From the IMG/VR virus record IMGVR_UViG_3300028805_000073: a stretch of 64,000 bases of DNA; one strand, written 5' to 3'. A model generated the notes under the pieces. It worked only from the letters and a program-made list of their open reading frames with translations. It was not told the DNA's origin and ran no database searches. The position numbers were made by a program, and so were the translations under genes. Position 1 is the stretch's first letter; the number at the start of each line of letters is the position of its first letter. Shown here piece by piece: positions 34,218 through 64,000 of this stretch. The DNA comes from a virus (Duplodnaviria > Heunggongvirae > Uroviricota > Caudoviricetes).

Positions 34218-34242
34218 AATCAATTAATTTAAATAATAAAAG

Positions 34243-34275: not shown

Positions 34276-34283
34276 AGTTTCAA

Positions 34284-36725: not shown

Positions 36726-36726
36726 A

Positions 36727-39462: not shown

Positions 39463-40895
39463 CTTGAAAGTATTATTTGTTTATTATCAATTAATGCAGC
39501 TCCAGATAATAGTCTCATTCCTATATTATGGTTAGTTGCATTATTAAATATCTTCATTCCCATTCTACCTCTAGCTATTGGAGACCAACCTCCTTGAATA
39601 TTCTGAGCATATCTCTAATTATTTATAGAAGACATATACTAACTTCTAATATTCTATAATTCATTCTAATCAGCCATATTTAGTATTCTATTCCAAGCAT
39701 AATTAGCAAAATTTATATTATCATCAGCCTTTCTTCTAGCACCTTGTGAGAATGTTCCATAAGTTTTTCCTGCTTCTGCTCTAGCTTTATCAAATTTATC
39801 ATTTAAATTACCAAAAGCATTTCCCATAAATGAATTAGCTTTCATTGAATTCTACCAAGATTGATTATTAAAAGTTCCTGTAGTAGAAGCATTAGCCATA
39901 TTTAACCATTTTATTGGAGCAGGTGTAAATGATGAACCCATTATAGCATCTTGTAGAGTCATTCCATCTGTTGAACCAAAAACATTAGATAATCCTTTAT
40001 TTAATGCCATTGCTCCAGAAACTATTGCTCCAACTGGACCAATAAATCCCACTCCTGCTTGAATTATATCATATATAGTATCAGCAGTTTTAACAGCACT
40101 ACCATATTTACCTCCATACTCTTTAGATGGACCTGTAGCAGCACCTATTGCTGAACCTGCTATTGACATTCCTGCTCCCCAAAGATTAGCTTTAGAACCT
40201 AACTATGCAGCTTTCTAAGCATCTGTTAATCCACCAGCAGCTTTAGAAGCTTTAGAAATATCATTAAGAGTCTTAATAGAATCATAAATAGATTTTGACT
40301 ATCCTATTGTACTAGATACACCTGCACCTATTCCTCTTGATAAAGCAGTATGTCCTCCAAGAGAATCAATTCCTTGTCCTACAAGATTACCAGTTATTCC
40401 AAGTGCAGTTCCACCTAAAGCTGCTCCAACATTTTGTCCTAGATTTTCAGATAAAGCATTACCTTTAATTAAGTTTTCTGTAATAGTATTTCCAGCAGCA
40501 CCTACTCCTGAACTAAATAATGCTCCCATACTTCTTCCAACGTCTGAGTCATCAAATAATTTATTTGATATATAATTAGTAGCTAAATTAGTAGCAGTAT
40601 TAACTCCAGCTCCTGCTAACTAATTAGTCTTACTTGTTGTAGAGAGAGTATTTTTATCTATTTTTACTGGCTTACTAACTGAAGGTCTATCATATGCAAA
40701 AATATTATTATTTATAGGATTTATTCCAGATCTAGTTTGGCTATGAATGCTAGCTAATCCTCCAGTCCCATCTTTAAATGTCTACAAGATATTCTATATA
40801 CTTAAATTACCATAAGACTAATTTATAAGAGGATTTCTCTAATTTCCATAATTTAAATCTAATCCACCAAACTAAAGTTTTCTAATTCTATTCAT
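39444..40895 (-). CDS. Glycine-zipper-rich protein (483 aa); putative membrane-active virion or ejection protein
   Basis: Pieces 40299..40529 and 39852..40169 carry GALFSSGVGAAGNT...GAALGGTALGITGNLVGQG...SIAGSAIGAATG. The ATG lies 3 nt after the upstream TGA. Its 3' end overlaps the next gene by 19 nt. Confidence 0.5.
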
Positions 40896-40897
40896 AA

Positions 40898-46171: not shown

Positions 46172-46188
46172 AATTAATTAATTTATCT

Positions 46189-49100
46189 TTACTATGTAGA
46201 GTTATCTCTTCTTTTTATTAAATATACTTTATCATATACTAATACTGTTTCAGAATCACCAAGTGTATTAGTTCTCTAACAAAAACATTTAAAATTTCTA
46301 TTATTAACAGTTCCTTCTGTTAGTTCACGTGAGTCACTATCAACTACTTTTTCAATATCATTATTACTATTATATAATAAAGAATATTCTTTACTGTTTT
46401 CATTTATTTTTCCTCTTGTAAACTAGAAATTATCACTACCTCCAACGATGTCTAATTTACCATTTTCATTTTCAAGAAGAATATTTTTTTCATTAATTTT
46501 ATTACTTCCATTTACTATATCTTTCATTAGTTGTACATTTCCATTTTTTAAATATACATAATCTAATGCAACATCAGAATCATGAATCTATAAATTATTA
46601 TGAAAATCAGTACTTGAAGTTAAATCTATTTCAACAGTATTACTATTATTCATAGCAAAATTACCCTATTTAAAGTTTAAATTTCCAATTCTATAATTTG
46701 ATGAAATTGATATAATGTTGTCATTATTATTTAATAATTCGCAATCTATCCCAAAAATATATTTGATTTTATCATAATTTAAAGTGTATGTATAATTAGC
46801 ATTACTATCATTTATATTATAAGATATATATATATTACTATTTTGTAATGTATAATTATCATATTTACAATATATATAATTGTCTATATGATTTTTTATA
46901 AATTGCTAAAAATTATTTTTTAAATTATCATCATTATCACTTGTATTATCTCTTTCTAATAAATCCTAGAATATACCCCATACACCGTCATTAGTACTTT
47001 TCATCCAAACTCTTGTATATTTATAACATGGTTTATACTCATAACCATTATAAACAGGAAGATCTTCATATCTATGATTTATACTAATAGGTTCAATATC
47101 TTCATAATAATTTGTATAATAATTTAAATAATTATCATTATCATCAAAATCTACAGACGAAGGATTAACTTTTTTTATAAAAATAAATGTAAACATATCA
47201 TTTTTTACAAACTCGCTAAGTCGTGTATAAAAATAATTAGAATCGTGGAATGTTGTTGGACTTTTCAATATTTGAGAAAGATAAGAATATCTTATTTTGT
47301 CTGCGTGTTGCTCATTTTCTAAAGTTTCTCCTTCTGTTGTACTATCTCCTCTTATTGTAGTTTCATATGAAGGCCCATGAGCTAATTTTATAATATGCTT
47401 ATCCCCACTATAGTTTGAATCCCAATCCACTATAGGTCCAGCAAATGTACTTGGATATTTAATATCATCATAAAAATCACAAAAAACATTCGATAAATTA
47501 TAAATTTTCTTATCAGTATGTGTTAAAAACAAATCATTATATTCTAAAGATATATTTATATTATTATTATCAGTTGTGGAGTTACATTCTAGCAAAGTTA
47601 TACCTTTAAATTCATCTATCAAATCACAATTATTGCTATTATCATAATATTTATTATTTTTCTAGTTATTTTGTAAAGATATAGCTTGTTTAAATGCTTC
47701 ATCTACTGTAATATTATTTGTAGTTAAATCTACATCTCCTATCTATAGAGTTTTAATTCCATTTATTGCAAATGAATTTTTAGCTGAATCACTTACATGT
47801 ATTTGACTAGGATAATTTTCTTCGTTTTTAATAGAAATAACAGAATTATTTTGTAGATTAAGATTTATTGTATGTTTACATCTATATTCTATATTTGGAT
47901 CATCTTTTTTTATAAGACTTCCAATTATTTCAGATTTTTCATTAATTTTCTTATTAAATCCTCCATCTGTTTCTAAATTAACAATCATTAAATCTTCAAA
48001 CTTTTTCTTAGCATTAGTAAATTCTTCTTTGCTTAAATCTGCTTTATTAAAATCACAAAAGTCAGGAACATTTCCATCAACTTGATAAAATTCATTAAAT
48101 AAAGGAGTTGATAAAAACCATCTTTCTACCCCTTCTGGTTCCTCTAAAGTTACATTATTTTTTGTATTAAGTTCTTCATCAATAATATCATAAGTTGCTG
48201 TTACTTTATATAAAGTTCTAGGTTGTATTCCATATTCATCCCAACTCAATGTATCAGTATTTCTATTTTCAAGCTTTAATCCTCCTTCTTTAGGATAAAT
48301 AAAAGTATTTCTTGAATTTAAAACATCAGTAAATTTAAATTTAAGATTGTCAAAACGTTTTCCATATTCTGGATAAGCGTTAAATGTATATGTTAAAATA
48401 GTTTCTTTTTTATTTATGTCATTTCTAAATCTCCATCCAGTTAAAAATACTTTTCCACTTCCTAATAATGCTAAATCTATAGAACCTCTAGCAGATAATC
48501 CTCTTATATAAATATCATTAGTATCTTTATCAGCTAATACTCCTATTGTATAATTATATGTTGTTATTGTTTGTCCAAATGCTAAATTACTTTCTGAATT
48601 TGTCTAGTTTCCGTTTGAATCAACAGGATTAGCTGAAATTCCAGAATATTTTTTAACAATTTTAACAGAATATAAATTAGTATTTGGATTATATGTACTT
48701 TTAGATCTTATTATATCTCCTTTCGTTCCATTTCCATTTAATATTAAATCAAAGGCATCAAATTGAGGAATTCCTTCATCAAAATTTATATAGTTTTCAT
48801 TTCCATTCTATTTATCAATATTAGTAGGATTATCAGGACAATTATAAGTTAAATATCCTTCTATCTGTAAATTAGCTTCTCCAGAATCATAAGTTCCATA
48901 TATAGTATAATTAAAATTTTCTATATGATTCAAACTAGTTTTTAAATATAGAGGTCCTATTAATTTATAGGCATATGTATTAGCAGCCATCTATTGGCGT
49001 TCTTTTATTAATTTAGAATCTCTTATAGTTTCACTTAAATCAATATTAGTAAATCCATCTGGTATAAAATATTCATCATTGAATTTATATATATCAGAAT

Positions 49101-49788
49101 ATGAATAATCATATTTTTTAGGTTTCCACATTCCAGATTTTTTCTCCCATCTACATAATGTTTTAGTAATATCAACAAATTCATTCTATGAATTTAGTAC
49201 TCCAAGATAAAGTGTATATTTTCTATTTTTAGGAGATTTGGCCTTCTTAGCAATATTATCAACATTTTTATAATTTGTAATATAATTTTTCATTTCTGCT
49301 AATCCTTCTGTAGACCATACAGCAAACTTATCTCCAGCTCTTAATGAAGTATCTCCGGTAAGCGGAATTAAAAATGAATCTGTATTTAAAACTTTTATAC
49401 CTAAATATTCATCATTAGATATATTTCCTTTTGTTAAATTCAAAAATGTATCAAAATCGAAACTTCCTCCTAAATTTTCATCATCATTAATATCTATTTT
49501 CTTTTCAGGAGATGGAAAACTTCCTATTTGAGATTTATTAGTTATAGGATTATATGCAGCAACATAAATAATTCCTCCATATTCTTTCATTCCAACAGGT
49601 TGATACCCAGGAGGGAGAAAAGCATTGTCTACTCTTCTATTACCCATGTCATTTTGCAAAATAACCTCATTTCCATTCATGGTTATAAATGTAGCATTCA
49701 GAGCATCTGATAAACTATCGTTGCCCTAAACCATTGGATGTGTATCAAGTTGAAGTCCTTTACTAAATTGATTAACTGTCTATTCCAT
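46189..49788 (-). CDS. Large tail structural protein T2 (1199 aa); podovirus nozzle/tail-tube-B-like N-terminus (tentative)
   Basis: Frame 0 across pieces 46966..47622, 47743..48249, 48808..48990 and 49186..49680. The N-terminus MEQTVNQFSKGLQLDTHPMV... has only a loose resemblance to the T7 gp12-type N-terminus. TAATG at 49786-49790. Confidence 0.45.
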
Positions 49789-50354
49789 TATTGTTGTATA
49801 TATTTAAATTTATTCTCAGAAGTCATTATGTTCTGCATATTTAAAGGATCTCGAACTACTATAAGTTCGGCATTTTCAGTTTTAATTTCTTTATAATATT
49901 TGTGCATCCATTTAGTCTTATCTTCATTTAATCTAAAAATGTAAGGAGACTATGGATCTTTTATTTTGATTTCTTCTAAAAGTTTATATAAAAAAACATT
50001 TTTGAATACTTTATATTTTCTATTTTTCTATGATAAATAGTCAATATACTAACTCTCTGATCTTGTAAAATAATAATATCCATCCCATTGTGATTTAGTT
50101 CTTTGAAACATATATGCTATTCTTTTAGATAATTTATAACAATAGTTCTTAAATACTGTTAAACCACTAGATGGTATTATTCCTATAAACATAAATTCTT
50201 TATTTGTAATCATTGAAACATCATTTCCAGCTCTTACATACTAAAGTATCATTTTCCAGCCGTAAACTAAAATTCTTTTTACATCTTCTCTGGAAAGTTC
50301 TGGAAATTTCTCATGAACAGAATCAACATAATCATTAATTTTAGTTGTTTTCAT
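49788..50354 (-). CDS. Hypothetical protein (188 aa)
   Basis: ATG 50354 is adjacent to the upstream TAA. Hand translation MKTTKINDYVDSVHEKFPELSREDVKRIL... Confidence 0.4.
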
Positions 50355-50804
50355 TTAACAATAAACTTTTCCCTCATTAGTATATTTAGTTATTTTATCT
50401 CTTAGAAACTTATTTACATAAATGGGATATTTCTTTCTATGTAAGAAATTATCAGATTTTCCATGAATATACAGATACATCTAATATCCTGTAAATAAAG
50501 ACTCTAAGAAATCTACATCTTTAAATTTTCCGTTTTTTCTAACTCTTTCAAATTCTGAGCCTGTAATGGCTTCCATATGAATTTCTCCTCCCTAGTAACC
50601 TACACCTTGTATTTTAAATGTAGCATTATTTTCTATAATATCATTAAGAATTTGCTAAACCCCCTCTCTAAAAACCTACTTAATTTTCTATCTCCTAAGT
50701 TGTTTCGTTTTAAAATTCTTTACTAGAGATTTGCATTTTTCATATGGAAACCTTACAAATATATCATTTAAATTACAGGCCCAACCTATTGCAAAATGTT
50801 TCAT
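50355..50804 (-). CDS. Hypothetical protein (149 aa)
   Basis: Hand translation MKHFAIGWACNLNDIFVRFPYEK... Confidence 0.4.
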
Positions 50805-50806
50805 AC

Positions 50807-51511
50807 TTATTTAAATGCTTTTAATCCAAAACCAAATCGCTTACGATCCCATGAAGTACTAGCATCCAAAATTGTATCAAAATCATTTTGAGATAATTGT
50901 TTAACTCTAGCCTAATCACACTATTTTGTCCATTGTTGATATAAAGCTCTAGTCATTTCAAGAGATTCTTTGGTATTTGTCCTTAGACCTTCTTTAAATT
51001 TTACAGTATATGCAATATAGGTAGCAATAGCCATTGCTTCTTTATCAGTAATTTCTGGAAGTCCATCCTCATCAAATAATATTCCTTTATAAAGAATATT
51101 TACCTTTCCATAATTATGTGTAAAATATAATTTATCTCCTACTTTTTCATATTTTAATACTTTTCCAGGTAAATAATAGTTTCCCTAATATCTTTTATTA
51201 CCTTCTATATACTATTCAGTATAAGCAGTACTGAAATCTCCAAAATCTATTTTATTAGAGACAGATGACCAATCTTCATAACAAGATGTTACTAATTCAA
51301 TGCAACTATCTCCATTTATATCTAGTGCATTACAAGGAAGAGTTATAGAATTATCACTTGGATCAATTTTAGCTGTATATCTATATAGTTTTCTATTCTT
51401 ATTACCTATATATCCCCAAGCCACAAGTCCAAGCTCTTCCATATCAGAATCTTCAATTTCGATTCCATACACCATATTTAATAATACTTGAATATAATGA
51501 AAATTTTGCAT
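50807..51511 (-). CDS. Hypothetical protein (234 aa)
   Basis: Piece 51212..51511 extended through TAG codons to TAA 50807-50809. Confidence 0.4.
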
Positions 51512-52236
51512 TATCCAGCAGCATATTTCTAATCATTTGGAAGGATAGGTGTTGCATATTGTCTATAATATTTTAACTTCTATTGAGTAAGTCTATCCTT
51601 TATAACAATATCTAAGAAATTTAAATTTGCATCCATCTATGTAACTTTATCAGCTGAAGGTCCATCACTACAATCACATTGAAATTCCTCTAATTGTCTT
51701 GGATCTTTAAATATAGCAACTATAGACACCTATTTAATTAATGGTGCTCCAAATATATAACAATCTAATAAACCATCCTAATTTGGGGCAATATCTATAT
51801 AAACCCAAGGTTTATTTTTTCCTCTTTTACGATATTTCTAATATGATTTAATTTTATCTATTGCTGAAGTATATACTAAAAACGAATGTTGTCTATCAGA
51901 AGAACCTAAATATTTTATTGTATATCCCAATCCAAAATCTAATAATAACTAAGGAATTTGAAAATGAGCTGTAGGTTCTCCACATACAGTTCCTCTACAT
52001 TTACATTTGTCTAAAGTATCACAATCTACAGGAATACAATTTATAGCTGCAACTAAATCATCTATAGGAAGTATTCCTTTTAACATATATTCTTTAATAA
52101 CAGCTAGCCTCATCTGAACAATCTCTTCCTATAATTGTTCTTTAGACATAGACATATTCTAATGATAACCTCTTAATCCAGATACAATATCATTAAATAC
52201 GGCATCGGCTAGTCGTTCTATTGATGTCCAAGCCAT
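51511..52236 (-). CDS. Hypothetical Cys-containing protein (241 aa)
   Basis: Hand translation MAWTSIERLADAVFNDIVSGLRGYH[Q]NMS... with CIPVDCDTLDKCKCRGTVCGEPT. TAATG at 51509-51513. Confidence 0.4.
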
Positions 52237-52250
52237 AATACAAAAATAAG

Positions 52251-52292
52251 CTAGACTAGACCTATAAGGTCCGGTCTAGCTTTTATTTTATT
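52251..52292 (-). terminator. Strong hairpin terminator downstream of the 299-aa structural gene
   Basis: CTAGACTAGACC-tataa-GGTCCGGTCTAG (11 of 12 base pairs), followed on the - strand by a U-rich stretch. Confidence 0.55.
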
Positions 52293-52300
52293 AAATTAAA

Positions 52301-53200
52301 TTACACATAAGGTTGTGCTAATACAGTATCAGCAGCACCAGCATCTCCTGCTTTCTTGATTTTAGCAGAGAATAAAGTATTTAAGGCTGTATAAATTTCC
52401 TTTGCAGCGCCAGAACTATCTGCAATTTTACCAGCAGCATAAATAACATGAGTAGTTACAGAAGTAGCTCTGTTACCAACAACTTGTCCTGCAATACCAT
52501 CTCTATCTACACACATTGTAATAATGAATTGTGTATATTCTTGTCCAGGAATGGGGAGTTCTCCCATTTGTTTTGTAACTGACCAAAAACCTGTATTTGC
52601 AGCAGTTGGAAGTCTTAAGTTATGGATAATCCAATTATAATCTCCAAATGCTTCAAGACCTGGAAGGATAGCTATTTCATCTGAATCTAATTCTACAGCT
52701 TCTCCGTTTTCATCTAATTTTTGAGCAGGATTTCCAGCTATTGCTAATCCTGTAGTATCATCAATTTCATATATTACAGGTACACCAGTCTTTATTGTAA
52801 TAAAGTCACCTTGATCTGAGCAGCAATCAATAGTATATGCTTTTGGATCATAACTTTGAAGTTCTGCTTTCTTGATTATTTGATAACCATTAACTGCTTC
52901 AAAAGTAACAGTACCTGTAGCAGAATTATTTCCACTTGCAGCAGCAGTAGTTGTAGTAACAGTTAAAATCTTTTCTTTTTCTCCAGTTTCAAAAAGTAAA
53001 TATTTCTTTGCAATTTTAGCTACTCTCTTAGCAACTACATCAGCAGTATCAGTACTCTTAACTGGGAATTCTACATAGAAAGGTTTTCCTTTATAAACTA
53101 ATGCATTAGAATAGAAAGAATCTTGACTTCCCATTGATAATCCAAGATAAAGAGCAATTCTTCCTGTAGTTTCTCCTGTTTGAGGAATAACATCAGCCAT
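52301..53200 (-). CDS. TAG-free virion structural protein (299 aa; capsid- or tail-associated; probably highly expressed)
   Basis: Intact standard-code ORF in a region where neighbouring genes are TAG-dense. Ala/Thr/Gly-rich. Followed by a strong terminator. Confidence 0.55.
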   Translation of the reverse strand: MADVIPQTGETTGRIALYLGLSMGSQDSFYSNALVYKGKPFYVEFPVKSTDTADVVAKRVAKIAKKYLLFETGEKEKILTVTTTTAAASGNNSATGTVTFEAVNGYQIIKKAELQSYDPKAYTIDCCSDQGDFITIKTGVPVIYEIDDTTGLAIAGNPAQKLDENGEAVELDSDEIAILPGLEAFGDYNWIIHNLRLPTAANTGFWSVTKQMGELPIPGQEYTQFIITMCVDRDGIAGQVVGNRATSVTTHVIYAAGKIADSSGAAKEIYTALNTLFSAKIKKAGDAGAADTVLAQPYV

Positions 53201-53438
53201 ATCAAATGTTACACATGCTAAACTTTCTTTTGAAGGAGCTTTAATCTAAATATCTGTAACATATGGAGAATCAAATCTAGTATTACCAATTCTAATAGAA
53301 GGAATTCTGCTGTTAGTAGAAGTAATTAAATTGGCATTCTTAACAGTTCCTGCTTTAACCTATGCATCAGTTGCAGGAGTAATTGTGTTGTAAATTGTTT
53401 GGGTTGTAAAACTAAACATAATTAATTAAATTTTAAAA

Positions 53439-54584
53439 TTACGCAGATTGTCCTGCTGCTTCAGGAGTCTATGCCTGAGCTGGATTAGCAATAGACTGAC
53501 TAACTACTGGATGTGTCTAAAGTCTCTGGTCACTAATATTTTCCATAATAAGATGTACCAACTCATTTATAATCTCTTGACAAACATAATCAGGATATTC
53601 TAACAACTAAGAAACATCCTCTGTTCTGTCAAGCTAATACTATGTAAGGCGTATGTGTTGAGGTGCTTTTATATAATCAACATAAACATCAGTAAGTTTA
53701 AATACTGAATCATCAGTACCATATCTGATTTCGATACGTACTTCAGAACGATTTCCATAACGTAAATATGCTCCTTTTTCTCTTAATGAACCACTTACTT
53801 TACTATCTCCATATGTTAAGTCAATAGTATTTTTATAATCATTACCTTGATAAATCTTATTACCAGTTCCATCTACTCCAAGATCTAATAGTCCAGATGA
53901 TACATTTTGATGATAATGTGAATTAGCAGGATCATAAGAAGCTGCGTTTTGATTTACTCCAGGAGAATCAATACCTCTTCCTTGATGTTCTCCTTCATTT
54001 TCATATGTTGCAGTTGGAATAGTAGCATATTTTATATTAGTTCTAGATGTATTTGGCATATTACCACTACCATTATTAGAAAGATCATCAAAACTATCTC
54101 CAGAACTCCATTGATCAACTATTTTATTTACATTATGGATATAATAATAAGGTCTTTTATAATCCGGTTTATTCCAGAAATTATCAAGAACCTAAGAATA
54201 CATATCAGCTGTTAAGCGAGTAGCTGCTGCTCTCCAAGTATCTCCTCTATTATAGCATTTGTAGGTTTTATCAACTCTGTAGATACAAATGCAATTAAGA
54301 ATATGAAGATAATCAGCTGGCATTACAACTTCATAATTTGCTCCATCTGCTAAACTTAATCCATTATAATCCTAAATTTTAGTAGGTTTAAGCATAGCAG
54401 TAGCTTTAAGTACTCTTAAATCATCTGTTGTTTGTTGATTAACATCATAAATATTATATCTTTTGTTGATATAATTATTTATAGCTTTATTTGCGAAATA
54501 ATTAAAATCCTCTAACAGTATGTTAGGAGCATTTTCCTTATTTAATTCAATTAATACACCATCGTATAATTGTCTTGCGGTCAT
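53439..54584 (-). CDS. Hypothetical structural protein (~381 aa)
   Basis: Pieces 54372..54584 and 53640..54059 are in one frame, joined by TAG. Stop TAA 53439-53441. Confidence 0.45.
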
Positions 54585-54593
54585 TTAATTACC

Positions 54594-55456
54594 TTATTTT
54601 TCTTCAGATTTTCCCATCAATTCGGGATAAGTATCTTGTTTTATAAGTTTATATATATTTGCGTTCTTTGGATCTTTTAAATATAATATGGCAGCATCAT
54701 CGGTTGCACCTAATACTACATTATCCGCATATGTATAGAGTTTATTTTTATACATAATAATATGTTTATCTCTAGCTTCTACAAACAGTAATCTAACTGC
54801 TGTATCTCCACCAGTATATAGATTAATAATTTTTTCTGGATCTGTCTCTGCTACTTGTAATAGATAATCTGTTACATCAGCATCAGGCATATTATCCATT
54901 CTATGTCCTAATAATCTAGCCTTTAATACTCTTCCTTCATATCCTCTATCATCATTATAAATATATGATTCAGCATCATGCTTAAGTTTCTTACGAGATA
55001 CTCTTCTATTAGCTTCAACTCCAGGTCTAACGATATAGAGTTCTGCTGTACCATACTTTCTGAGTTCTTTGTTATATAATTCCTTTACACCATAAGTTCT
55101 AGTGTCTCCATTAATTAAAGAAAATCCGGAAGAATCCTTTGCATAGTAATCAGGAGAAATTAAAGGATTATTTTTTATAGCTTCCCATTTAAATCTATCT
55201 CCAACATTATCTAAGTCAAAGGTCATACCATCTACTACATCAATTACTGCATCTTCTCTAATAAAATAGTTCCTATTTGGATCATTCATTTCTTTTTCAT
55301 TAAGAACCATATTTCCATTAGAGTCTACTCTTTTTACACAATCAGGATAATTTCCGTATTTATCTTTACAAGGTTGCATTTTTATAACTATACCAACCTT
55401 TCCTCTTACACTTTTAAGTATTATCTTATTAGATAAATTAATTTCCTATTTAGTTT
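54594..55456 (-). CDS. Hypothetical structural protein (287 aa; alternative start at 55379)
   Basis: ORF 54594..55379 has no TAG over 261 aa. An upstream in-frame ATG at 55456 adds 26 aa and one TAG. Confidence 0.45.
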
Positions 55457-55496
55457 CCTTTGCCATATTATTTCATTAACATAAAAATTTATATTA

Positions 55497-55532
55497 ATAC
55501 GGGCTCCTGAGTAAATCCCAGGAGAACCGTAT
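55497..55532 (-). terminator. Hairpin between two capsid-region genes
   Basis: ACGGGCTCCTG-agtaaatcc-CAGGAGAACCGT with AT/U-rich flanks. Confidence 0.35.
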
Positions 55533-55564
55533 TAACAGTATCTAATTAATTTTATTTTCTTTTA

Positions 55565-56430
55565 TTAAACTTCTCTGATTACATAACTTCTATATGGATT
55601 GAATAAAGCTAATGAGCTATATCCCCACATAATACGTTTAGCACCAGCAACAGGTGTTGAAACTTCTCCAGATTCTAATCCAGTTAATCCACCAACACCT
55701 TTAATATAAGATTGCATCATATCACCACCTTTAAGGGTAAATAATGCTATAGGAGGCTGACTGCTTGTCTTATCACCTGTTACATCAATAGCAAATGCAT
55801 AACCCTTATCAGCATATTCTCTTGTTAATGCTTTATCAACCTTAAAGGTAATTTCGTTACCCATCCAACGATAAGTATCGTATCCTCTAGCTCCAACTTC
55901 TACATATCCATTAGCTTTCATTGACCATAAGTATGATCCATCAGTGTGATACTGTGCAAGATATGTATCAAGTAAATCTCCAAGTTGATAATAGAATGGT
56001 TCATTGCAAATAAATAAATACTTATTACCTGTAGTTTCTCTAGCCTTTTCATTAAGACTTTGAATTGCAGTTCTTAATACATTAATAGTAAGTTTGTTAT
56101 AAGCATATTTACTTGCAAAAGCTTCAACTTGAGGAATTAAACCATCAGAAATATAGATAGGTCTATTTGTTTGTGGATCAACAATAGTAGCTTTACCATC
56201 TTCTGTTACATTACCTTTAGAGAATAATAAAGCATTATTACGTCCTTCAAGGAATGTATTAAGTAATGTCTTTTGAACAGTATCCATTCTATAAATTGTT
56301 TCTGTTAGGGATCCTTGATCCTTACCTTCAGCAATCTTAATGAATACATTTTCTAAAGCAGCATATCTTTCAGAATAATCTGCGTCAAAACGGTGAGTCT
56401 AGATATATCCTCTGTGTTTTTCAACATTAG
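55565..56430 (-). CDS. Putative major capsid protein, 3' exon (open frame extends upstream of ATG 56287 with no in-frame start back to ~56500)
   Basis: ORF 55565..56287 (240 aa) has no TAG. The same frame stays open upstream through ...VFYGDIRGYTEEGYTKW[Q]SNVEKHRGYI[Q]THRFDADYSERYAALENVFIKIAEGKD... with no ATG, which is consistent with an exon. It lies downstream of the scaffold gene. Confidence 0.45.
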
Positions 56431-56439
56431 ACTACCATT

Positions 56440-57800
56440 TTGTGTAACCTTCTTCCGTATAACCTCTTATGTCGCCATAAAAGACTGACTATATTATTAA
56501 TTATTCTAAATATTTATAAATATGTTGTTTATGAGTTCTATTTGTTCCTGCTAAAACCTTCCAAACAGATGTTCCGTTTTCTTTTTCAGCAGCTGTAGCA
56601 GATTCATATTCTTTTACAAGATTTCCTTGTAAATCATATTTACCTACTCTACGTTTTTTATTTATTCCTTTTGGAATATTATAATTTTCAAGTTTTTCTA
56701 ATGACCATAAATATCCGTTTTCATCTGGAGATTTAAATTTTATCGATTTTGTTATATTGGTTTTGCATTCTAATTCAGCTTCTTGTTGAGTTTCATATTC
56801 TTTATTAAAACTTCCATCAGAATTATATTTAAAAACTCGTCTGGATTTTATATATTCAGTTCTTGCTTTATCATAAGACTCTGCTTTTATATAAGATAAG
56901 TAATACTTATTATGTACACAATTTCCTAAAATACAAGCTTTTCTTATAGTAGTTGTTGCAATTCCTGATTTTCTTTCTGCTTCAGCTTGTGTTTTAAATC
57001 CTCCTAAATATTGTCCTTTTAAATTATAAAAATAAATTTTATTAGAATGATTTAATCCTAAATTATAATTAGTTAAATCTAATTTTTCTAATTTATCTGT
57101 AGACCAAAAATAATTTTTAGCTTTAGCTTTTTTTCTTACTGCATAAGAAATTAAAGTGTAATCACAATTTAATTGTAAAGCAGCATCAGCAAAACTTTCA
57201 TATTCATTTAAATAATTTCCATTTTCATCATATTGAAAAACTTTTATTCTTTGAGAGATTAAACATCCAGCAATTCCTCCTAATATCATATTATATACAT
57301 CTGAACGTTCTAAAAACTTTTCATTAACAATTTGTTCTTCTAAATCAGAAGCTTCTTCCAAAGTATTAAAAATAGCTAATGTTTTTCTTTTAAAATTCTT
57401 TGGACCATATTTTTTAACTGCTGCTTGAAAAGCTGTTTTAGCATACATATATGTATAAGGTTGTGTGGCTATTATTCCATTTCCTAAATAACCATCAAAA
57501 ATATCTGGATTTTCTGTTTTATGTAATCCCACATATATTTTTCCATTAATTAAATTTGTTGTTTCATAAACAATATATTTCCAATTTTTTTCCATATTTA
57601 ATATAATTATTTACTCTTTCGATAAAAATTATCTACTCCTTACGGATAGTCGATGAACCTTATTAATAATCCTCTGCTATATTAGAGTGAAAATTAATCT
57701 TGGCTTCTGATTATCTCCGAAGAGATTTCCCAGAAATTAAGTAAATTTTCTTAGTCAAATAATTTAAAATATTATTCTAACTAAGGCACAAAGTAATTTA
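56440..57800 (-). mobile_element. Group I intron (approximate ends) with a GIY-YIG homing endonuclease in P8, interrupting the putative capsid gene
   Basis: On the - strand: P AATTTCTGGGAAATCTC (57722-57738), Q AATCAGAAGCC (57702-57712), UUCG-tetraloop hairpin ATCTCTTCGGAGAT (57714-57727), R GGTTCATCGACTATCCG (57643-57659) with GNRA loop CCGTAAGG, then the endonuclease ORF, then S AATATAGTCAG (56485-56495). The order P-Q-R-ORF-S is canonical. Confidence 0.6.
56501..57595 (-). CDS. GIY-YIG homing endonuclease with three C-terminal DNA-binding repeats (364 aa)
   Basis: KYIVYETTNLINGKIYVGLHKT (GIY...YVG). Three ~45-aa repeats of the form YDENGNYLNEYESFADAA.../KYNSDGSFNKEYETQQEAE.../KYDLQGNLVKEYESATAAE... 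It is intact in the standard code, with zero TAG. Confidence 0.8.
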   Translation of the reverse strand: MEKNWKYIVYETTNLINGKIYVGLHKTENPDIFDGYLGNGIIATQPYTYMYAKTAFQAAVKKYGPKNFKRKTLAIFNTLEEASDLEEQIVNEKFLERSDVYNMILGGIAGCLISQRIKVFQYDENGNYLNEYESFADAALQLNCDYTLISYAVRKKAKAKNYFWSTDKLEKLDLTNYNLGLNHSNKIYFYNLKGQYLGGFKTQAEAERKSGIATTTIRKACILGNCVHNKYYLSYIKAESYDKARTEYIKSRRVFKYNSDGSFNKEYETQQEAELECKTNITKSIKFKSPDENGYLWSLEKLENYNIPKGINKKRRVGKYDLQGNLVKEYESATAAEKENGTSVWKVLAGTNRTHKQHIYKYLE

Positions 57801-58333
57801 TGCATCTCAGGCATATTAGCAGTAATCCATCTTGTCTTATCACCAGGTTGACAAGCACTTAAATCGAGAATGCTTTCATAGTTGTTATCAACTAATCTTA
57901 CTACAACTTCCCAATAATTGTCACCTTTTCTAACAGGACGTGCTACTACCATGCACTACTGACCTGATCCTTCAATCTTGAAAATATCATATTTTTCATA
58001 ATATCTTTCTCTAAATGCCATTATGATTTCAGTTCCACCTGCTCCATCACCATCAGGTACAGCAGCAAATTCAATTCTCTTGATATAATTTGTTTCAATA
58101 TCAAAATCATATTGGAAAGCATTTAAAGATTGATATTTATTTCCACTACCTTTTAAGTTAGTATAGAATACATTTTTAAGAGATTCGGTAATGAAAGATG
58201 CTGTTAAGTCAGTATACATTCTTGAAACAATTCCAAGACGTTGTGGCTTAACTCCAAGGTACTTATAGAAATCTTCATAAGTACGTGTATCACCCATAGT
58301 AGGAATGTTAGAAACAAAACTAGCTATTTTCAT
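57764..58333 (-). CDS. Putative major capsid protein, 5' exon (its last ~10-20 codons and the TAA are probably intron-encoded)
   Basis: 189-aa ORF with one TAG. The TAA at 57764 lies only 26 nt upstream of the intron P element, so the 5' splice site must be inside this ORF. It follows the scaffold-like gene directly. Confidence 0.45.
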
Positions 58334-58349
58334 ATTCAGTTATTCATTT

Positions 58350-59387
58350 TTATTCATCATCGTCATCTAAGTCATTTATTGTTGTATATGAACGATAATG
58401 TTGTGGTTTCGTATTGTTTTTCTTATTTGAATTATCTATTACTACAGTAGGTCTAGTTTGTACTCCTTTTTTCCCGTCTTCCAAACCTCTCTTATATTGG
58501 TTATCAGACACCAATTTTATCTATTGTGCGTAATAATCGGAAATACTATTAAGAGCCTCCTCACCATTAAGGATAAACCAAGCAGCTTTAGTTAAGGTTT
58601 CTGGATCTTGTAAGGCTTCAAAAAGATAGTTCTTTCCAGACTGATCTCTTGATAACATAAACTCAGCAAGTTCTTCTCTATCAGCATCCTCAAAGTTTAG
58701 ATCAAAGCTTCCAACAGAGTTAAAATTACTTATAGCGTCAATCACTTGAGACTAATATTCTTGAAATTGTTCAGCTTCTTTTTGTTCTCTTTGAGCTTGC
58801 TCTTGTTGAGCTTGTAAATCTTCTCTTTCTTTATACTCTTTACGAATTCCTTCTACTTGTTTCTTGAAAAATTCTTCGTTAGATTTAACAGTATTTAATG
58901 CCTAAACAGCTTCATCTTCACTTAATTCTCCAACTCTAGATTCTAAATCAAGTAAATATACTTCATCATCAGATAAATCATCTATTTTATACTATGGAGT
59001 AACTTCTACTTGTTCTCCCTTAATAGACTCTAAATATTCAACTGGAGATAATTTACTTTCTCTGATTTGATTTATTAAATTGATTTCATCTTCTGTTAAA
59101 TCATTATTGTTATTATCTTCTTGTTCTGTTTCTAAAGGCATATTTAAAATATTAACTTTTTCTTCATTGGATAAGTCATTCCAACTTCTTTCAACTAAAT
59201 TTCCATTTTCATCTTCAAAGTTAATTTTATTTAAATCATCTATACCTCTAGTTTTTAAAAAATCTGACATAAAATCTCCTTCAGACTCCTAACCAGCAGG
59301 TGGAGTTACGGGAGGTTCTTGAATTTCTTCCTATTGACCAGGTTCAAGAATGTCGTCATCATCTAAATCATCAATTCCTATTGCCAT
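58350..59387 (-). CDS. Scaffolding-like acidic coiled-coil protein (345 aa)
   Basis: Pieces 58992..59270 and 58521..58745 are joined by TAGs. Hand translation runs from ATG 59387 (MAIGIDDLDDDILEPGQQEE...) to ...DLDDDE*. It is acidic, with an EEDLQAQQEQAQREQKEAEQ heptad region. Confidence 0.5.
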
Positions 59388-59475
59388 ATTTATTATATTT
59401 TTAATTAAATTGAAAACAATAAAGTTTCATATTAAAAATACTACTCCTTTATTGTTTTCAAAAAATTTTTATTTA

Positions 59476-62400
59476 TTATCCACAGAAGAACTAATACCAC
59501 CGATTATCTCCATTTACAACAGCTTTAATAAACATCTGTGGTCCATAACCTATTGATATTGAAACATCCTAATTATTATCACTAGCTTTTACAATAGTAG
59601 CAGTACTAATATCTTTAACACTAACTGTTACTCCACTCTATTGAGTAGATTTTACATAAACAACTTCAGAATATCCAGTTATATTTTCTGAATAAGGCAA
59701 ATAATAATTTCCCTAAGTAGTTATAAGGTTAAATCCACACTTTAAAGTATTATTTGTATTTGGAGTAGAACTAGATGGACTACTTGGAAAATTCTGTGAT
59801 ATATATAATGAATCCGTAGTTAATAACTATAAATTTGATCTACCATATACTCTTAAAGCATCAGTACTATAGTCCGGAGTTCCAGAAATTGCTCCATTCT
59901 AATACAATTCTATATATAAAGGAGTATTTATAATACCAGCTGAACCAAGTGAACTATTTGTTCCAGTATTAGGAATAAAATAAACAACTTTTTTACCGCC
60001 ATTATTACCATACTATCCATAAATTTGAATATTTCCAGATGATAGATTAGAACCAGCTCGGTCAGAAAGAGCTCCCGCATGATAATCACTTGTCTATAAA
60101 TGATCATTATAAATATCAAACCCACCTATAGTTCCTCCAGTAGCTATTATATTACCTTCAACATTAACACCTCCAGAAGAATCTATTAAGAATTTATTTT
60201 GAGCAGCACCTTGTTCTCCAGTTAATAAATTAACCCACCAATTTGGTTCAAACGAATTTGTGAAAGTGAGTGTAAGTTTAAAATTAATACTTGTTGTTGA
60301 ATTTGTTCCAACTCTTATATATCCATCATAACTTGAAGTTCTAGAGCCAGTATTAGGATTAGCAGTTGTTGTATTTACATTAACTATAGATGGATTATCA
60401 TGTCCATCTACTAATACACAATTTAAGACTCCAGATGTTGTAATTCTTTCTAATGTTGCATCAATTTTAACTCCGCTTGGAATATTCAAAGGTATTTTAT
60501 AACTCGATTCATTTGTACAGCTTCCAGTAAATACTATATTATTAGTAGGAGCACAAATAAATTTAGTATATGCTGGAACTCCAACAGATATTGTTGTTCC
60601 ATTATTATACTAAGTAGAACCTATTTTACCATTTGTAGAGATTATATAATCTCCACTTATAATAGCACTACCAAATTTAGCAAAGTTACCAAAATATGCT
60701 TCTGCCATATAAAACTTATTTTCATCCATCATCTATTTCCAGTGAGAATCAGCATAGATATTTTCGACTTGAGTTGGCCATCCAGTAGCAGTACGACTAC
60801 CATTACCATCTAATTCTGAATCTAATACATATAAAACATAAAATTTTTCATTATATTTTATGTAAGGAGCTTGATACTTTGTTGCTTTACAATTAGTTAA
60901 TAAAATATTATCTTTTCCATATTCTCCAACATAATAATACATTTTTCCAGCAGAAGCAGGTTGTTGAGTTATGTCTGGAATAGCAGGAACAAGTGCTCCT
61001 ATATCACTCCATTGTTCAGGTTTTATACTGTCAATACTACCATTAGAAGCAGCCGTAGCATGAATTTCATATAATGTCTAATTTCCAGAAGGAGGTGATA
61101 ATTTCCAATTTCCAATATATTCGTTTGTAGTTCTTTCATCTGTATATAATTTTTTACTTTCAAAATTATAATATAAAATACTATTAGGTTTGTTATCATT
61201 AGTTAGAACTTGAGTAGACCTCTAATATAAAAAGACACTTGCTATATTATAAAGCATATTTCCAGCAGCATCAACTCTTATAGGTTCACTCCATTCAGTT
61301 TTATTTATATCATCACTTATCGTCTAACCGTATGCTATAGCAGTAGTCATATATAGATCATTACTACCTTCTGGTATATTAATAGACCATCCATTGTTTT
61401 TACTACTATCATTCCAACTTAAAGTTTTATTTTTAAAATTATAATTAGATTTACTATCTATTCCAGTTTCAGTTAATTCTAATGAAGATCTTTTATAAAG
61501 TCTTATTGTAGCCTAAGAATATCCTGGTTCGTTTGGTTTTAAACAATAGATTTTTCCAATATCTACTTTTTCACTATTATAATATAAGCAAATATTATAT
61601 CCTCCTTCTTTATATGGTAATGGATTTGTTTCTTTCATCTATAAACCTGTATAATAACCAGACTAAGAAGGAGAAACTCCCTGGAAATATCCATCTTCAG
61701 TATCAATATTATAATAAATACCTTGAGTATCAGAAATGTCAATAGAATAATCACTATTACCAGGACGAGCTCCACTAGGATTATAAACACGTACTCCAAA
61801 ATTTCCTTGTGATCCATCATTTCCTATTTTTTTACATTCTATTCTTATAGTATTATTGCTGTCTGATACTTCTCCATTACTATTATAATGTATAACATTA
61901 TCATAAATAAGTAATTTAGGAAACGATCCATCGTTTGAAAGATCTGATATATTTAAATTAGAACATATTGTAACATCAAAAGAAGTTTCTTCTACTATTA
62001 ATTGTAAAGTATAATGATATAATCCCGTAGATAGTTTATTAATAGTTCTGCCTGATTCTTTATAGATAACAAATATATTACTTTCTGTTGTCTATCCCTA
62101 TTCAATCAAGTTATATTGATTATTATTAGTTTCAGTGTATAATTTTAATCCATCTGGAAGAACAATATCTGTTACTTTAAATTTACAATTCATAGTAACA
62201 TTAGAATTTGCTCTATATACAGTTATAGAATTACGTGTAGCTGCTTTTAATCCTGCATCATTAGTTGTATTATCATCAACATAACTACATGGATTATTTT
62301 GAGTCATAATGTATGCTTCTGTTCCCTATCCCTCTCCAGCAGGACCTCTATCACCTCTAATTGAAAAATCAACAGTTTCATTATCAACTATTTTTAGTTC

Positions 62401-64000
62401 CCCATTAATTTTTTTATATAATTCTACTGTTATATATTCAATTGTTTTAACAAGGTTAGATGTATTTGATAAACTAGATAAATCATATGTTATAATTGTA
62501 TTGTTAATTCCATAAGTAAAATTTATATTATTAATTGTATCTCCATTTGAATTTTTAATTATAACTCCAAATTCATTATCCTATAAATTACTAGTACCAT
62601 TTTTAATAACTAAATCTGAAATAGAATTATCATTAATTTTTAACGCTGATACCTATATAGATGATGTAGATCTAAATTTATAATTGCTTGTTTCAGATTC
62701 TCTTTCTACACCTAATGTATTAGGACTAACATTAAGTGAATATGATTCTCCATTACTTATGTCTATTACTAAGAAATTTTGTAATTTTGATGCAGATATA
62801 TTATCTTTTTCAATTGTATAGGTAATCTCTGTAGATCCTACTGAAAAATTATCATTACCTTGTTTAATTAAAACAAAACCTTTAAAATTACTATCAATAG
62901 TAGTATTAGATCCCCATTCTAAAACACTATAATTACTTACAGTTCCATTGTTATTTATACTTGTAATTAATGCTGGTTTAATTTTACTAATATTATCTCC
63001 ACTACAATCAATTTTTACAACAGAACCATTTGTAATATCATCAACACCATTCCATAATTTTACATTTGTTTTAGAAGCAGTTTTTAGTGAATTTAACGTT
63101 GTCTAATCATCAACAACTATATTATCATTATCTATAGTTGCTGAATATCCACTTGACGAAAATATTCTCCATACTTTTGGATTAGAAAATTCTCCCCAAT
63201 AAGAATCTGTATCATTATTTTGATTTCTTTTACGTTTTCTAGTTGAAAAATATTCTATCGGATTATTAATACTAAGATTTTCTGAAGGATCATCACTCCA
63301 TCCATCTAGTATGAAATCATCGTTTTGATATTCAACACTATTATTAATTTCTGAAATATTAATTTCAACTGTTGTATTACTATCTTTATTTTTTCCTCTA
63401 TATTTTCCATTACTTGATATAGAAGGAACTGAAGCATTTTTTCCTTTTAAATAATATATATATTCATAACCATCTCCATCAAGTCCGTTTCTTCCATAAT
63501 GAGACCATATAATTGGACCAAATAAATATGTATATTCATTATTCTATTTAGTAAATCCTACAATCCATTCATAAGGAACACTACTATCAACTCCATATGG
63601 ATGATCATTCCAATAACCAGTAACACTATCCTCATCAGCATAATTAGTTCCATTATAAGGTTTTCTTGGATTATGACTTTCTATTCCTTTTACTATATTT
63701 ACCCAATCAGCATTAGTATTATTGTTTCCAGGCTTATTGTTACCCTATGTTCTGCAATATATGTAATTAAAGGATTCACTATCACTTCCAGTTCCAGAAG
63801 TTGTTCCATCAGAACCTATTCTATAAGGACCAAACCAGACTATATTATTAGTTGCAATAAATTCATCTCCCTGTTTATTAGCATATATCATATATAGGCT
63901 TTTACCAGATTCAACAGTTGTATTTTGTTCATTATTCCAACCAGTAGGAATTCCTTGAGTTGATTTTATAGTCTAATATTCACTATCTGCATCACTCTAA
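59476..64000 (-). CDS. Tail-fibre/receptor-binding-like large protein, 3' portion (gene continues beyond the window end)
   Basis: Frame 0 across pieces 60094..60489, 60733..60942 and 62098..62307. Rich in Asn/Thr/Gly with repetitive beta-strand-like segments (GGTIGGFDIY, NVEGNIIATGG). Double stop TAATAA at 59473-59478. Confidence 0.5.

What the first reader, a model, noticed from the sequence alone, without database searches (positions are those of the whole stretch)
56440..58333. Putative major capsid gene split by a group I intron that carries a GIY-YIG homing endonuclease
P, Q, R and S group I core elements flank the GIY-YIG ORF in canonical order on the - strand, with UUCG and GNRA tetraloop hairpins. 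The upstream ORF (57764..58333) ends only 26 nt before the P element. The downstream frame (56500 to 55565) is open for ~70 codons before its first ATG. Both features are expected for exons. The gene sits directly after the scaffold-like gene, which is the usual position of the major capsid gene. The two exons together would encode a protein of roughly 480-500 aa.
Basis: partly seen in the sequence, partly recalled or inferred. Interest (0 to 1): 0.75.

Follow-up and report, generated by a model that had tools for sequence, protein, structure and literature searches.

The report
Group I intron splitting crAss-like capsid gene
The major capsid gene of this stop-codon-recoded crAss-like phage is interrupted by a 1,344-base self-splicing group I intron that carries its own GIY-YIG homing endonuclease gene; this is real but is a kind of feature already described for this phage group.

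Summary
On the minus strand, a group I intron (57799..56456, 1344 nt) splits the major capsid protein (MCP) gene into exon 1 (58333..57800) and exon 2 (56455..55565). Joining them gives a 474-aa protein that aligns without a gap to over 560 uninterrupted crAss-like MCPs. Close relatives without the intron read ATGCAT|GAAGAAGG straight through the site. The ribozyme core (P1-P9, plus P7.1/P7.2 as in phage T4 td) matches Rfam RF00028 when the two halves are scanned separately. Compensatory changes in eight orthologous copies at the same site support it. A 364-aa ORF is looped out of P8. Its N-terminal domain folds like the I-TevI GIY-YIG catalytic domain and is followed by four NUMOD1-like repeats.

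The MCP has three in-frame TAGs, and the real 3' splice site lies 57 nt upstream of where the standard-code frame opens.

Yutin et al. 2021 already reported intron-rich MCP genes in Zeta and Delta crAss-like phages, so this is a new member of a known kind. One small new point: this endonuclease lineage has no TAG codons, although TAG makes up 47% of Gln-like codons in the surrounding genes.

The parts
57800..58333 (-). MCP exon 1 (178 codons, MKIASF...MPEMH). It ends with the U (57800) that forms the U.G wobble in P1.
   Evidence: It aligns to residues 1-178 of uninterrupted homologues. The P1 pairing comes from the RF00028 alignment. The intron-less alleles L001-L003 read ...ATGCAT|GAAGAAGG.
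57956..57958 (-). In-frame TAG, MCP codon 126, read as sense (Gln).
   Evidence: At least 90% of homologues have Q at this column. The recoding signal is window-wide.
56456..57799 (-). Group I intron, 1344 nt, IA-like (has P7.1 and P7.2). It starts AAAUUAC... and ends ...GUUAUACG; the terminal G (omega-G) is at 56456.
   Evidence: RF00028 hits. Orthologues at the same site in L069, L081, L083, L084, L085, L115, L119 and L121. Pair counts.
57786..57803 (-). P1. Exon GCAU (57803..57800) plus intron AAA (57799..57797) pair with the internal guide UUUGUGC (57792..57786). U57800.G57789 is the wobble pair at the 5' splice site.
   Evidence: All 7 pairs are invariant in 8 copies. RF00028 alignment.
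57750..57785 (-). P2 hairpin.
   Evidence: Found in the MFE and centroid folds. Two pairs show changes on both sides. P2 is absent in L085.
57705..57746 (-). P3 5' strand (57746..57739, AUUUACUU). P4 (57735..57730 with 57710..57705; these are the P and Q elements). P5 with a UUCG loop (57726..57713).
   Evidence: One P4 pair is U-A in 4 copies and G-C in 4 copies. RF00028 alignment.
57657..57704 (-). P6 extended hairpin.
   Evidence: Three to four pairs show changes on both sides.
57609..57658 (-). R element and P7 5' strand (GACUA, 57651..57647). P7.1 hairpin with a GUAA loop (57646..57637). P7.2 hairpin (57633..57621). P3 3' strand (GAGUAAAU, 57616..57609).
   Evidence: The P7.1 pairs take the forms U-A, A-U and G-C across copies. 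The P7.2 stem varies in length but stays complementary. L085 fits P3' = AAGUAAAU (8 of 8 pairs) and not the alternative GUAGAU-type strand (4 of 6 pairs), by inspection. The centroid fold pairs the same P3 strands.
56501..57595 (-). Intron ORF: 364-aa GIY-YIG-type homing endonuclease with four NUMOD1-like repeats. It ends in TAA and has no TAG codons. It is looped out of P8, whose stem strands are 57608..57594 and 56513..56499.
   Evidence: Pfam NUMOD1 at 48 bits; SegE_GIY-YIG below cut-off. PHROG 314. The model has pLDDT 87.7 and its best PDB match is the I-TevI catalytic domain 1mk0. 892 homologues.
56464..56495 (-). S element and P7 3' strand (UAGUC, 56491..56487), and P9 hairpin with a GCGA loop (56483..56464).
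   Evidence: The 5 P7 pairs are invariant in 6 copies. P9 has one-sided and two-sided changes. RF00028 3' hit.
55565..56455 (-). MCP exon 2 (296 codons plus TAA; EEGYTKW(TAG)SNVEKHRGYI(TAG)THRF...). The in-frame TAGs are at 56434..56432 (codon 186) and 56401..56399 (codon 197).
   Evidence: Homologues read ...MPEMH-EEGYTKWQSNIEKHRGYIQTHRF.... Q186 is invariant in 33 sequences. Intron-less alleles have CAA where the window has TAG at codon 186.

Best explanation
This is a mobile group I intron inside the major capsid gene of a TAG-recoded crAss-like phage.

**Shown**
- The pre-mRNA region 57799..56456 (minus strand) has a complete group I core.
- The U.G pair in P1 marks the 5' splice site after 57800. 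A terminal G at 56456 marks the 3' splice site.
- Removing exactly this segment joins 58333..57800 to 56455..55565. The result is a 474-codon capsid ORF that is colinear with uninterrupted homologues. Its three TAG codons fall at positions where the homologues have Gln.

**Inferred from established group I chemistry**
- Exogenous guanosine attacks the 5' splice site. The freed exon 1 3'-OH then attacks after the terminal G, ligating the exons.
- No host factor need be assumed, but none is excluded.

**The intron ORF**
- It sits in the P8 loop and encodes an endonuclease with an I-TevI-like GIY-YIG domain and four NUMOD1-like DNA-binding modules.
- Inferred: in mixed infections it cuts intron-less capsid alleles near ATGCAT|GAAGAAGG, and repair from the intron-bearing genome copies the intron in (homing).
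- Three observations fit this. The closest MCP alleles (91-93% identity) lack the intron. More distant alleles carry it at the identical site. In L081 the endonuclease is more similar to the window's (89%) than the capsid exons are (66-77%).
For: **Ribozyme**
- RF00028 matches the 5' half at 40.5 bits, E 2.6e-9, and the 3' part at 13.9 bits. The orthologous copy in L081 scores 51.8 bits against a gathering score of 50.
- On 6 copies, 92.5% of cells are paired, against 38-45% when partners are slid. 13 pairs change on both sides, against 1-6.
- On 8 copies of the 5' half, 96.5% are paired and 8 pairs change on both sides, against 1. No shuffle in 500 reaches the observed covariation score.
- MFE and centroid folds recover P2, P3, P4, P5, P6, P7.1 and P9, with z = -2.5.

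**Junction**
- Homologue alignment.
- Intron-less alleles L001-L003.
- The Pfam Crass_capsid score rises from 42.8 to 54 bits, and the match spans the junction, once the correct 3' splice site is used.

**Capsid fold:**

**Endonuclease:**

**Recoding:**

**Not an assembly artefact:** the same arrangement occurs in independent ENA and JGI contigs.
Against: - No RNA evidence of splicing and no enzymology.
- Rfam finds nothing in the intact window at its curated threshold, or in a 3.2-kb scan. The window's own copy reaches 40.5 bits only on its 5' half, below the gathering score of 50.
- The structure was derived partly from the window sequence, which inflates the 'cells paired' measure.
- Only 6-8 related copies were available, so the shuffle controls overstate significance.
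- P10 is weak (4 bp at most) and P8 shows no clean covariation.
- GIY-YIG membership does not reach Pfam's curated cut-offs (16.9 bits against 25). The Foldseek E-value is only 0.067, although probability is 0.99 and TM is 0.67 normalised to I-TevI.
Confidence: 0.92

Rival explanations
1. Decayed, non-splicing intron remnant. The capsid gene in this contig is a pseudogene or the genome is defective, and the ribozyme-like elements are relics.
For: The window's copy is below Rfam's gathering score on either half. There is no expression data.
Against: All core helices are kept through compensatory changes in copies whose endonucleases have diverged to 63% identity. The U.G pair and the terminal G are invariant. 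The exons stay in frame and keep 84-91% identity to the closest intact homologues. A phage cannot do without its capsid protein, so a non-splicing copy would not persist in many samples.
Confidence: 0.04
2. Free-standing homing endonuclease gene inserted between two separately translated capsid gene halves (a split gene, with no RNA splicing).
For: Public gene callers annotate separate 189-aa (or 125 + 62 aa) and 240-aa ORFs. Exon 1's frame runs on to a TAA at 57764.
Against: Exon 2 has no start codon at its true beginning; the first ATG is 56 codons in. The 19 conserved residues EEGYTKWQSNVEKHRGYIQ would be lost or untranslated. The flanks of the ORF form a covarying group I core. The boundaries coincide to the nucleotide with intron-less alleles.
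Confidence: 0.02
3. Intein (protein splicing). Exon 1, the endonuclease ORF and exon 2 are all in the same reading frame, and the insert is 1344 = 3 x 448 nt.
For: The shared frame is seen directly in the coordinates.
Against: TAA stops, which are not recoded here, interrupt the frame at 57766..57764 and further on. There are no Hint/intein family hits. GIY-YIG enzymes are intron-borne or free-standing, not intein-borne (established knowledge). The RNA core is present.
Confidence: 0.01

Closest known systems
Group I introns in MCP genes of Zeta and Delta group crAss-like phages (Yutin et al. 2021, Nat Commun 12:1044, PMC7886860)
   Same: Same host gene family (crAss-like MCP) and the same kind of insert (a group I intron with an endonuclease ORF). 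The genome context also matches: relatives are on contigs of 125-194 kb, late genes are stop-codon recoded, and there are several introns per genome. The paper states that MCP, PolB, primase and other core genes carry group I introns, and shows a Zeta-group MCP split into five fragments.
   Different: That paper identified introns by their protein domains and gave no splice sites or RNA structure. Its MCP example has no recoded stops, whereas this MCP combines an intron with three in-frame TAGs. In its PolB example the intron ORFs contain recoded codons, whereas this endonuclease lineage has none. Membership of this window in the Zeta group is inferred from those similarities and was not tested by phylogeny.
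Phage T4 td intron with I-TevI (subgroup IA2 group I intron carrying a GIY-YIG homing endonuclease)
   Same: A phage group I intron in an essential, conserved gene. It has P7.1 and P7.2 between P7 and P3', and the local sequence GACUAU-hairpin-...UCGAAA-P3' is laid out as I recall it for td (from memory, not tested). The endonuclease's N-terminal domain best matches the I-TevI catalytic domain. The mechanism expected is the same: self-splicing plus homing by double-strand-break repair.
   Different: The ORF is in the P8 loop here, not in P6. The DNA-binding part is four NUMOD1-like repeats rather than I-TevI's zinc finger, alpha-helix and HTH. Sequence similarity to I-TevI is undetectable by phmmer or a profile. 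The host gene is structural, not nucleotide metabolism.
Capsid-gene introns in other phages (e.g. Cluster J mycobacteriophages, PMC3706429)
   Same: An intron interrupts a major capsid gene of a tailed phage (title and abstract listed).
   Different: Unrelated phages and capsid sequences. I did not read that paper beyond its listing.

Membership tests
Group I catalytic intron (Rfam RF00028) | Match to the covariance model at or above the curated gathering score (50 bits). | tested here: inconclusive
   The intact window gives no hit. The halves scanned separately give 40.5 bits (model positions 5-158) and 13.9 bits (174-253). The orthologous copy in L081 gives 51.8 bits on its 5' half alone. 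An ORF-deleted construct could not be submitted to the tool.
Group I catalytic intron (Rfam RF00028) | Conserved core helices P3-P9, including the P4/P6 and P3/P7/P8 domains, maintained by base pairing. | tested here: met
   92.5-96.5% of cells are paired, against about 40% in slid controls. 8-13 pairs carry changes on both sides, in P2, P4, P5, P6, P7.1 and P9. P3 and P7 are invariant, so they say nothing either way.
Group I catalytic intron (Rfam RF00028) | A U.G wobble pair in P1 at the 5' splice site, and a G as the last intron nucleotide. | tested here: met
   U57800.G57789 is present in all 8 copies. The last base is G in all copies whose 3' end is held (...ACG or ...UUG).
Group I catalytic intron (Rfam RF00028) | Excision restores a continuous, conserved ORF. 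| tested here: met
   The 474-aa product is colinear with homologues of 473-476 aa. Intron-less alleles exist. The Pfam match runs across the junction.
Group I catalytic intron (Rfam RF00028) | Guanosine-dependent self-splicing. | not testable with these tools
   Needs in-vitro transcription and a splicing assay, or RNA-seq.
Subgroup IA (td-like) group I introns | Extra helices P7.1 and P7.2 between P7 and the 3' strand of P3. | tested here: met
   P7.1 (3 bp with a GNRA loop) has two covarying pairs. The P7.2 stem varies in length but stays complementary. No subgroup-specific model was available, so the subgroup label rests on this feature alone.
GIY-YIG homing endonucleases (I-TevI-like) | Pfam GIY-YIG family match at the curated cut-off. 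| tested here: not met
   SegE_GIY-YIG scores 16.9 bits against a cut-off of 25. The best E-value among 6 orthologues is 1.2e-4. PF01541 reaches E 0.33 in 1 of 6.
GIY-YIG homing endonucleases (I-TevI-like) | GIY-YIG alpha/beta fold of the catalytic domain. | tested here: met
   The AlphaFold model has pLDDT 87.7. Its top PDB match is the I-TevI catalytic domain 1mk0, with probability 0.99, TM 0.67 normalised to the target, 98 columns and E 0.067.
GIY-YIG homing endonucleases (I-TevI-like) | The motifs GIY ... YIG, plus conserved Arg, Glu and Asn. | tested here: inconclusive
   In 33 homologues Y10 (of IVY), Y21 and G23 (the YVG/YIG motif; position 22 varies V/I), R70, E86 and N102 are invariant. 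Their equivalence to I-TevI Y6, Y17, R27, E75 and N90 was not established residue by residue.
GIY-YIG homing endonucleases (I-TevI-like) | Site-specific cleavage of the intron-less allele. | not testable with these tools
   Needs a cleavage assay on an intron-less allele (e.g. L001).
Crassvirus major capsid protein (Pfam PF23898; HK97 fold) | Family match above the curated cut-off. | tested here: met
   54.0 bits against a cut-off of 27, E 1.2e-14, residues 96-324. Most homologues carry PF23898 in the precomputed annotation.
Crassvirus major capsid protein (Pfam PF23898; HK97 fold) | HK97-like fold similar to the solved crassvirus capsid protein. | tested here: met
   Tested on a proxy: a model of P0002 (88% identical, uninterrupted; pLDDT 63.9). 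It matches phicrAss001 chains 7qoh_A and 7qof at E 4e-19 to 1e-17 over about 500 columns, and then other HK97 capsids and encapsulins. Sequence-only PDB searches found nothing.

The most novel reading that the evidence does not exclude
The endonuclease at this site is kept free of the recoded TAG codon. It has 12 CAA and 0 TAG, while TAG supplies 47% of Gln-like codons in the surrounding late-gene block. All distinct orthologous copies are also TAG-free, although their host capsid exons contain 1-8 TAGs.

This would mean the intron's mobility function is selected to be readable under the standard code. One possibility is that it is translated before the phage switches the cell to TAG read-through. 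Another is that it must work after transfer into co-infecting phages that use a different code. Either way, the selfish element would be uncoupled from its host gene's recoded late expression programme.
Probability: 0.25. Interest if true: 0.55.

Novelty: new member of a known kind. Interest (0 to 1): 0.3.

Why it matters
**Annotation.** Public gene calls for this very sequence break the capsid gene into two or three anonymous ORFs. The combination of TAG recoding and an intron hides the 19 most conserved residues of the protein. The exact coordinates given here let the gene be annotated correctly.

**Biology.**
- It adds a nucleotide-resolved, structure-supported example to the intron-rich capsid genes described for Zeta and Delta crAss-like phages.
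- Related loci show that one 60-nt stretch of the capsid gene (MPEMHEEGYTKWQSNIEKHRGYIQTHR) is used by at least three different introns.
- It raises a testable question about how homing endonucleases cope with phages that change their genetic code during infection.

None of this changes what is known about group I introns or homing.

Tried and rejected
1. **First 3' splice site guess.** I first placed it after the TAG at 56399, the only in-phase G under the standard code. That gave a 455-aa protein. It was rejected when the homologue alignment showed 19 residues missing at the junction, and the window was seen to encode them with two TAG codons.
2. **Broad Rfam scans.** The whole-window scan at gathering score and a 3.2-kb scan at E<=10 gave no group I hit. 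Only narrow scans of each half did.
3. **Sequence searches of the PDB.** The endonuclease, its 6-member profile and the MCP profile gave nothing meaningful.
4. **Structure prediction of the joined MCP.** An uninterrupted homologue was used instead.
5. **Search for an ORF-less copy.** I looked for one at this site so that Rfam could score the whole ribozyme. There were none in viral contigs, and none among the 11 metagenome loci fetched (examined).
6. **Rfam's P3' assignment.** Rfam's alignment places the P3 3' strand at GUAGAU. I rejected this in favour of GAGUAAAU, because L085 fits only the latter and because it leaves room for P7.2. All other copies are compatible with both.
7. **tRNAs.** There are none in the window, so the suppressor is not here.
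8. **GenBank phage records.** Only two unannotated relatives, at 54-58% identity.
9. **Promoter and terminator scan.** Nothing informative.
Full report
**What is in the sequence.** Under the standard bacterial code, the region 55565..58333 on the minus strand holds four ORFs: 57956..58333 (125 aa), 57764..57952 (62 aa), 56501..57595 (364 aa) and 55565..56287 (240 aa). The first two are in one frame and are separated only by a TAG. The window as a whole is 28% G+C. If TAG is read as a sense codon, its ORFs grow from at most 369 codons to 3585, 2881, 1759 and so on. Making TGA a sense codon instead has almost no effect. The minus-strand gene block 2541..63891 carries hundreds of in-frame TAGs. 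No tRNA gene lies in the window.

**The gene.** The flanking ORFs are the two halves of a crAss-like major capsid protein. A search with the joined product found 567 proteins. The best are 87-53% identical and 473-476 aa long, and most carry Pfam PF23898.

My first junction used the only in-phase G under the standard code and gave 455 aa. The alignment then showed 19 residues missing exactly at the junction. Homologues read ...MPEMH-EEGYTKWQSNIEKHRGYIQ-THRFDA.... The window encodes EEGYTKW(TAG)SNVEKHRGYI(TAG)THRF immediately upstream.

The true exon 2 therefore starts at 56455 and the intron is 57799..56456 (1344 nt). The spliced ORF has 474 codons, with TAG at codons 126, 186 and 197. In 33 aligned sequences, Q is invariant at 186 and at least 90% conserved at 126. 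At 197 the closest relatives have Q.

With the corrected junction, the Pfam Crass_capsid score rises from 42.8 to 54.0 bits. The match becomes one stretch, residues 96-324, running across the junction at 178/179.

A model of the uninterrupted homologue P0002 (88% identical) best matches the phicrAss001 capsid protein (7qoh, 7qof; E 4e-19 to 1e-17) and then other HK97-fold capsids.

**The intron.**
- *Rfam.* Rfam finds nothing in the intact window or in a 3.2-kb scan, because the ORF splits the ribozyme. A scan of 57590..57830 gives RF00028 at 40.5 bits, E 2.6e-9, over model positions 5-158 (P1 through P7 and P3'). A scan of 56380..56520 gives a weak match to model positions 174-253 (J8/7, the P7 3' strand and P9).
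- *Splice sites.* P1 pairs exon GCAU plus intron AAA with UUUGUGC. That puts the U.G wobble at U57800, which is the last base of codon 178. The intron ends in G56456.
- *Thermodynamic folding.* Folding a version with the ORF removed recovers P2, P3, P4, P5 (UUCG loop), P6, P7.1 (GUAA loop) and P9 (GCGA loop), with z = -2.5.
- *Subgroup.* Between P7 and the P3 3' strand (GAGUAAAU) lie two small hairpins, P7.1 and P7.2, as in subgroup IA introns such as T4 td. The td comparison is from memory.
- *ORF position.* The ORF is looped out of P8. The P8 strands include the nucleotides just before the ATG and the last codons of the ORF.

**Related sequences.** Viral and metagenome contigs supply both alleles.
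- *Intron-less alleles.* L001, L002 and L003 have MCPs 87-92% identical (best tblastn segment). They read ...ATGCAT|GAAGAAGG... with no interruption.
- *Intron-bearing alleles.* L069, L081, L083, L084, L085, L115, L119 and L121 carry an intron at exactly this site. Their endonucleases are 63-89% identical to the window's.
- *Rfam on an orthologue.* The L081 copy reaches 51.8 bits, above Rfam's gathering score.
- *Pair counts, six copies.* 92.5% of cells pair, against 38-45% when the 3' partners are slid. 13 pairs change on both sides, against 1-6.
- *Pair counts, eight copies of the 5' half.* The figures are 96.5% paired and 8 pairs, against 1. Clear compensatory pairs occur in P2, P4 (U-A in four copies, G-C in four), P6 and P7.1. 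P1, P3 and P7 never vary.
- *Caveat.* The structure was drawn partly from the window, and the copies are few and related. These numbers support the fold but are not probabilities.

**The endonuclease.**
- Pfam gives NUMOD1 (48 bits) and a sub-threshold SegE_GIY-YIG match. PHROG 314 'homing endonuclease' matches at E 1.7e-21.
- An AlphaFold model built on 33 homologues has pLDDT 87.7. It shows an N-terminal alpha/beta domain followed by four beta-beta-alpha-alpha modules.
- Its best PDB match is the I-TevI catalytic domain (1mk0; probability 0.99; TM 0.67 normalised to I-TevI). The next is the DNA-binding part of I-HmuI.
- I therefore accept 'GIY-YIG-type homing endonuclease', while noting that Pfam's curated threshold is not met.

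**How it most likely works.** *Shown:* the anatomy, the exact insertion site and the restored ORF. *Inferred from group I chemistry:* guanosine-initiated self-splicing of the capsid pre-mRNA. *Inferred from the biology of I-TevI-like enzymes:* cleavage of intron-less alleles in mixed infections and copying of the intron by repair. The distribution fits mobility. The closest capsid alleles lack the intron. In L081 the endonuclease is 89% identical to the window's, while the capsid exons are only 66-77% identical.

**Rivals.** An intein is excluded by in-frame TAA codons. A split gene with a free-standing nuclease is excluded by the covarying RNA core and by the missing start for exon 2. A dead intron is unlikely given the conservation across copies. 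An assembly artefact is excluded because independent ENA and JGI contigs show the same arrangement.

**Comparison with what is known.** Yutin et al. 2021 (PMC7886860) described crAss-like phages of the Zeta group (145-192 kb) and the Delta group. These have stop-codon reassignment in late genes and an 'unprecedented density' of group I introns and inteins. The paper names MCP explicitly and shows a Zeta MCP in five pieces. The relatives found here sit on contigs of 125-194 kb, and several have 3-5 introns in the MCP gene. This finding is therefore a new, well-resolved member of a known kind. Group membership of this particular phage is inferred, not tested.

**What is slightly new.**
- *A TAG-free endonuclease.* The endonuclease ORF has 12 CAA and no TAG. 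TAG makes up 47% of Gln-like codons in the other minus-strand genes, so about 5e-4 would be expected by chance. All orthologous copies are TAG-free, although their host exons hold 1-8 TAGs. Some paralogous endonucleases at other sites do contain in-frame stops.
- *An intron hot spot.* Relatives use at least three different insertion sites within about 60 nt of this conserved segment.

**Verdict.** Interest is modest, because the phenomenon is published.

Noticed in passing
window 2541..63891 (- strand) versus 5..2490 (+ strand): TAG is a sense codon throughout the minus-strand gene block. Examples: 82 TAGs in a 3583-codon ORF and 63 in a 2878-codon ORF; overall TAG is 47% of CAA+CAG+TAG. The short plus-strand genes at the left end have almost none. 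TGA and TAA remain stops. No tRNA, and so no suppressor tRNA, lies in the window.
   Followed up: partly
window about 398..1300 (+ strand): A second group I intron. P is at 420, Q near 553, R (GGTTCAACGACTA) at 1142-1154 and S (GAAGATATAGTC) at 1243-1254, and there is a P9 hairpin. RF00028 gives a partial hit at 1158..1276 (36.5 bits, E 2e-7). The intron splits a Band_7/SPFH gene (5..397 plus about 1300..1584). An approximate join hits PF01145 at 43.6 bits across the junction. It carries a 231-codon ORF (548..1243) with an HNH-like CYYCGE...CCPKCNYMKN motif and two in-frame TAGs. That ORF has no Pfam hit, and exact splice sites were not determined.
   Followed up: partly
window 56501..57595 (- strand); L069, L081, L083, L084, L085, L119, L121: The intron's endonuclease gene has no TAG codons (12 CAA, 0 TAG) inside a heavily TAG-recoded block. 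All orthologous copies are also TAG-free, while their host capsid exons contain 1-8 TAGs. Some paralogous endonucleases at other intron sites (L013, L105, L123) do have in-frame stops.
   Followed up: partly
L068:395-2024, L080:3007-4000, L083, L085, L072, L073-L077, L094: The capsid gene of this phage clade is an intron hot spot. L068 and L080 carry a different intron 8 nt downstream of this site (after GAAGAAGG). L068 has a further one about 35 nt on. L083 and L085 have 4-5 interruptions in one MCP gene, some without an ORF and matching RF00028 at 55-67 bits. Other relatives are interrupted near residues 139, about 323 and 414.
   Followed up: partly
L112 and L113 (public contigs identical to this part of the window): Public gene calls split the capsid gene into 189 + 240 aa (ENA) or 125 + 62 + 240 aa (JGI), with no or weak family labels. 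Neither the intron nor the recoding is recognised.
   Followed up: yes
window 34603..35559 (- strand): A 318-codon ORF (9 in-frame TAGs) with three repeats of a ...KYDYSKV...CPKHGEF...C..C... module. It matches Pfam DUF4379 (treble-clef zinc finger) and DUF723. It may be a free-standing nuclease-like gene; not examined further.
   Followed up: no
L069:532-790: The orthologous intron in L069 has an extra insertion of about 60 nt in the P5 arm compared with the window. L085 lacks P2 altogether. The peripheral helices of this intron are therefore plastic while the core is fixed.
   Followed up: no
model of P0002, residues 176-194 (equivalent to window MCP residues 176-194): The intron insertion site falls in the most conserved sequence stretch of the protein. 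The structure model gives this stretch very low confidence (pLDDT below 50). It lies between two strands (166-172 and 197-205), which may be an extended loop that is ordered only in the assembled capsid.
   Followed up: no
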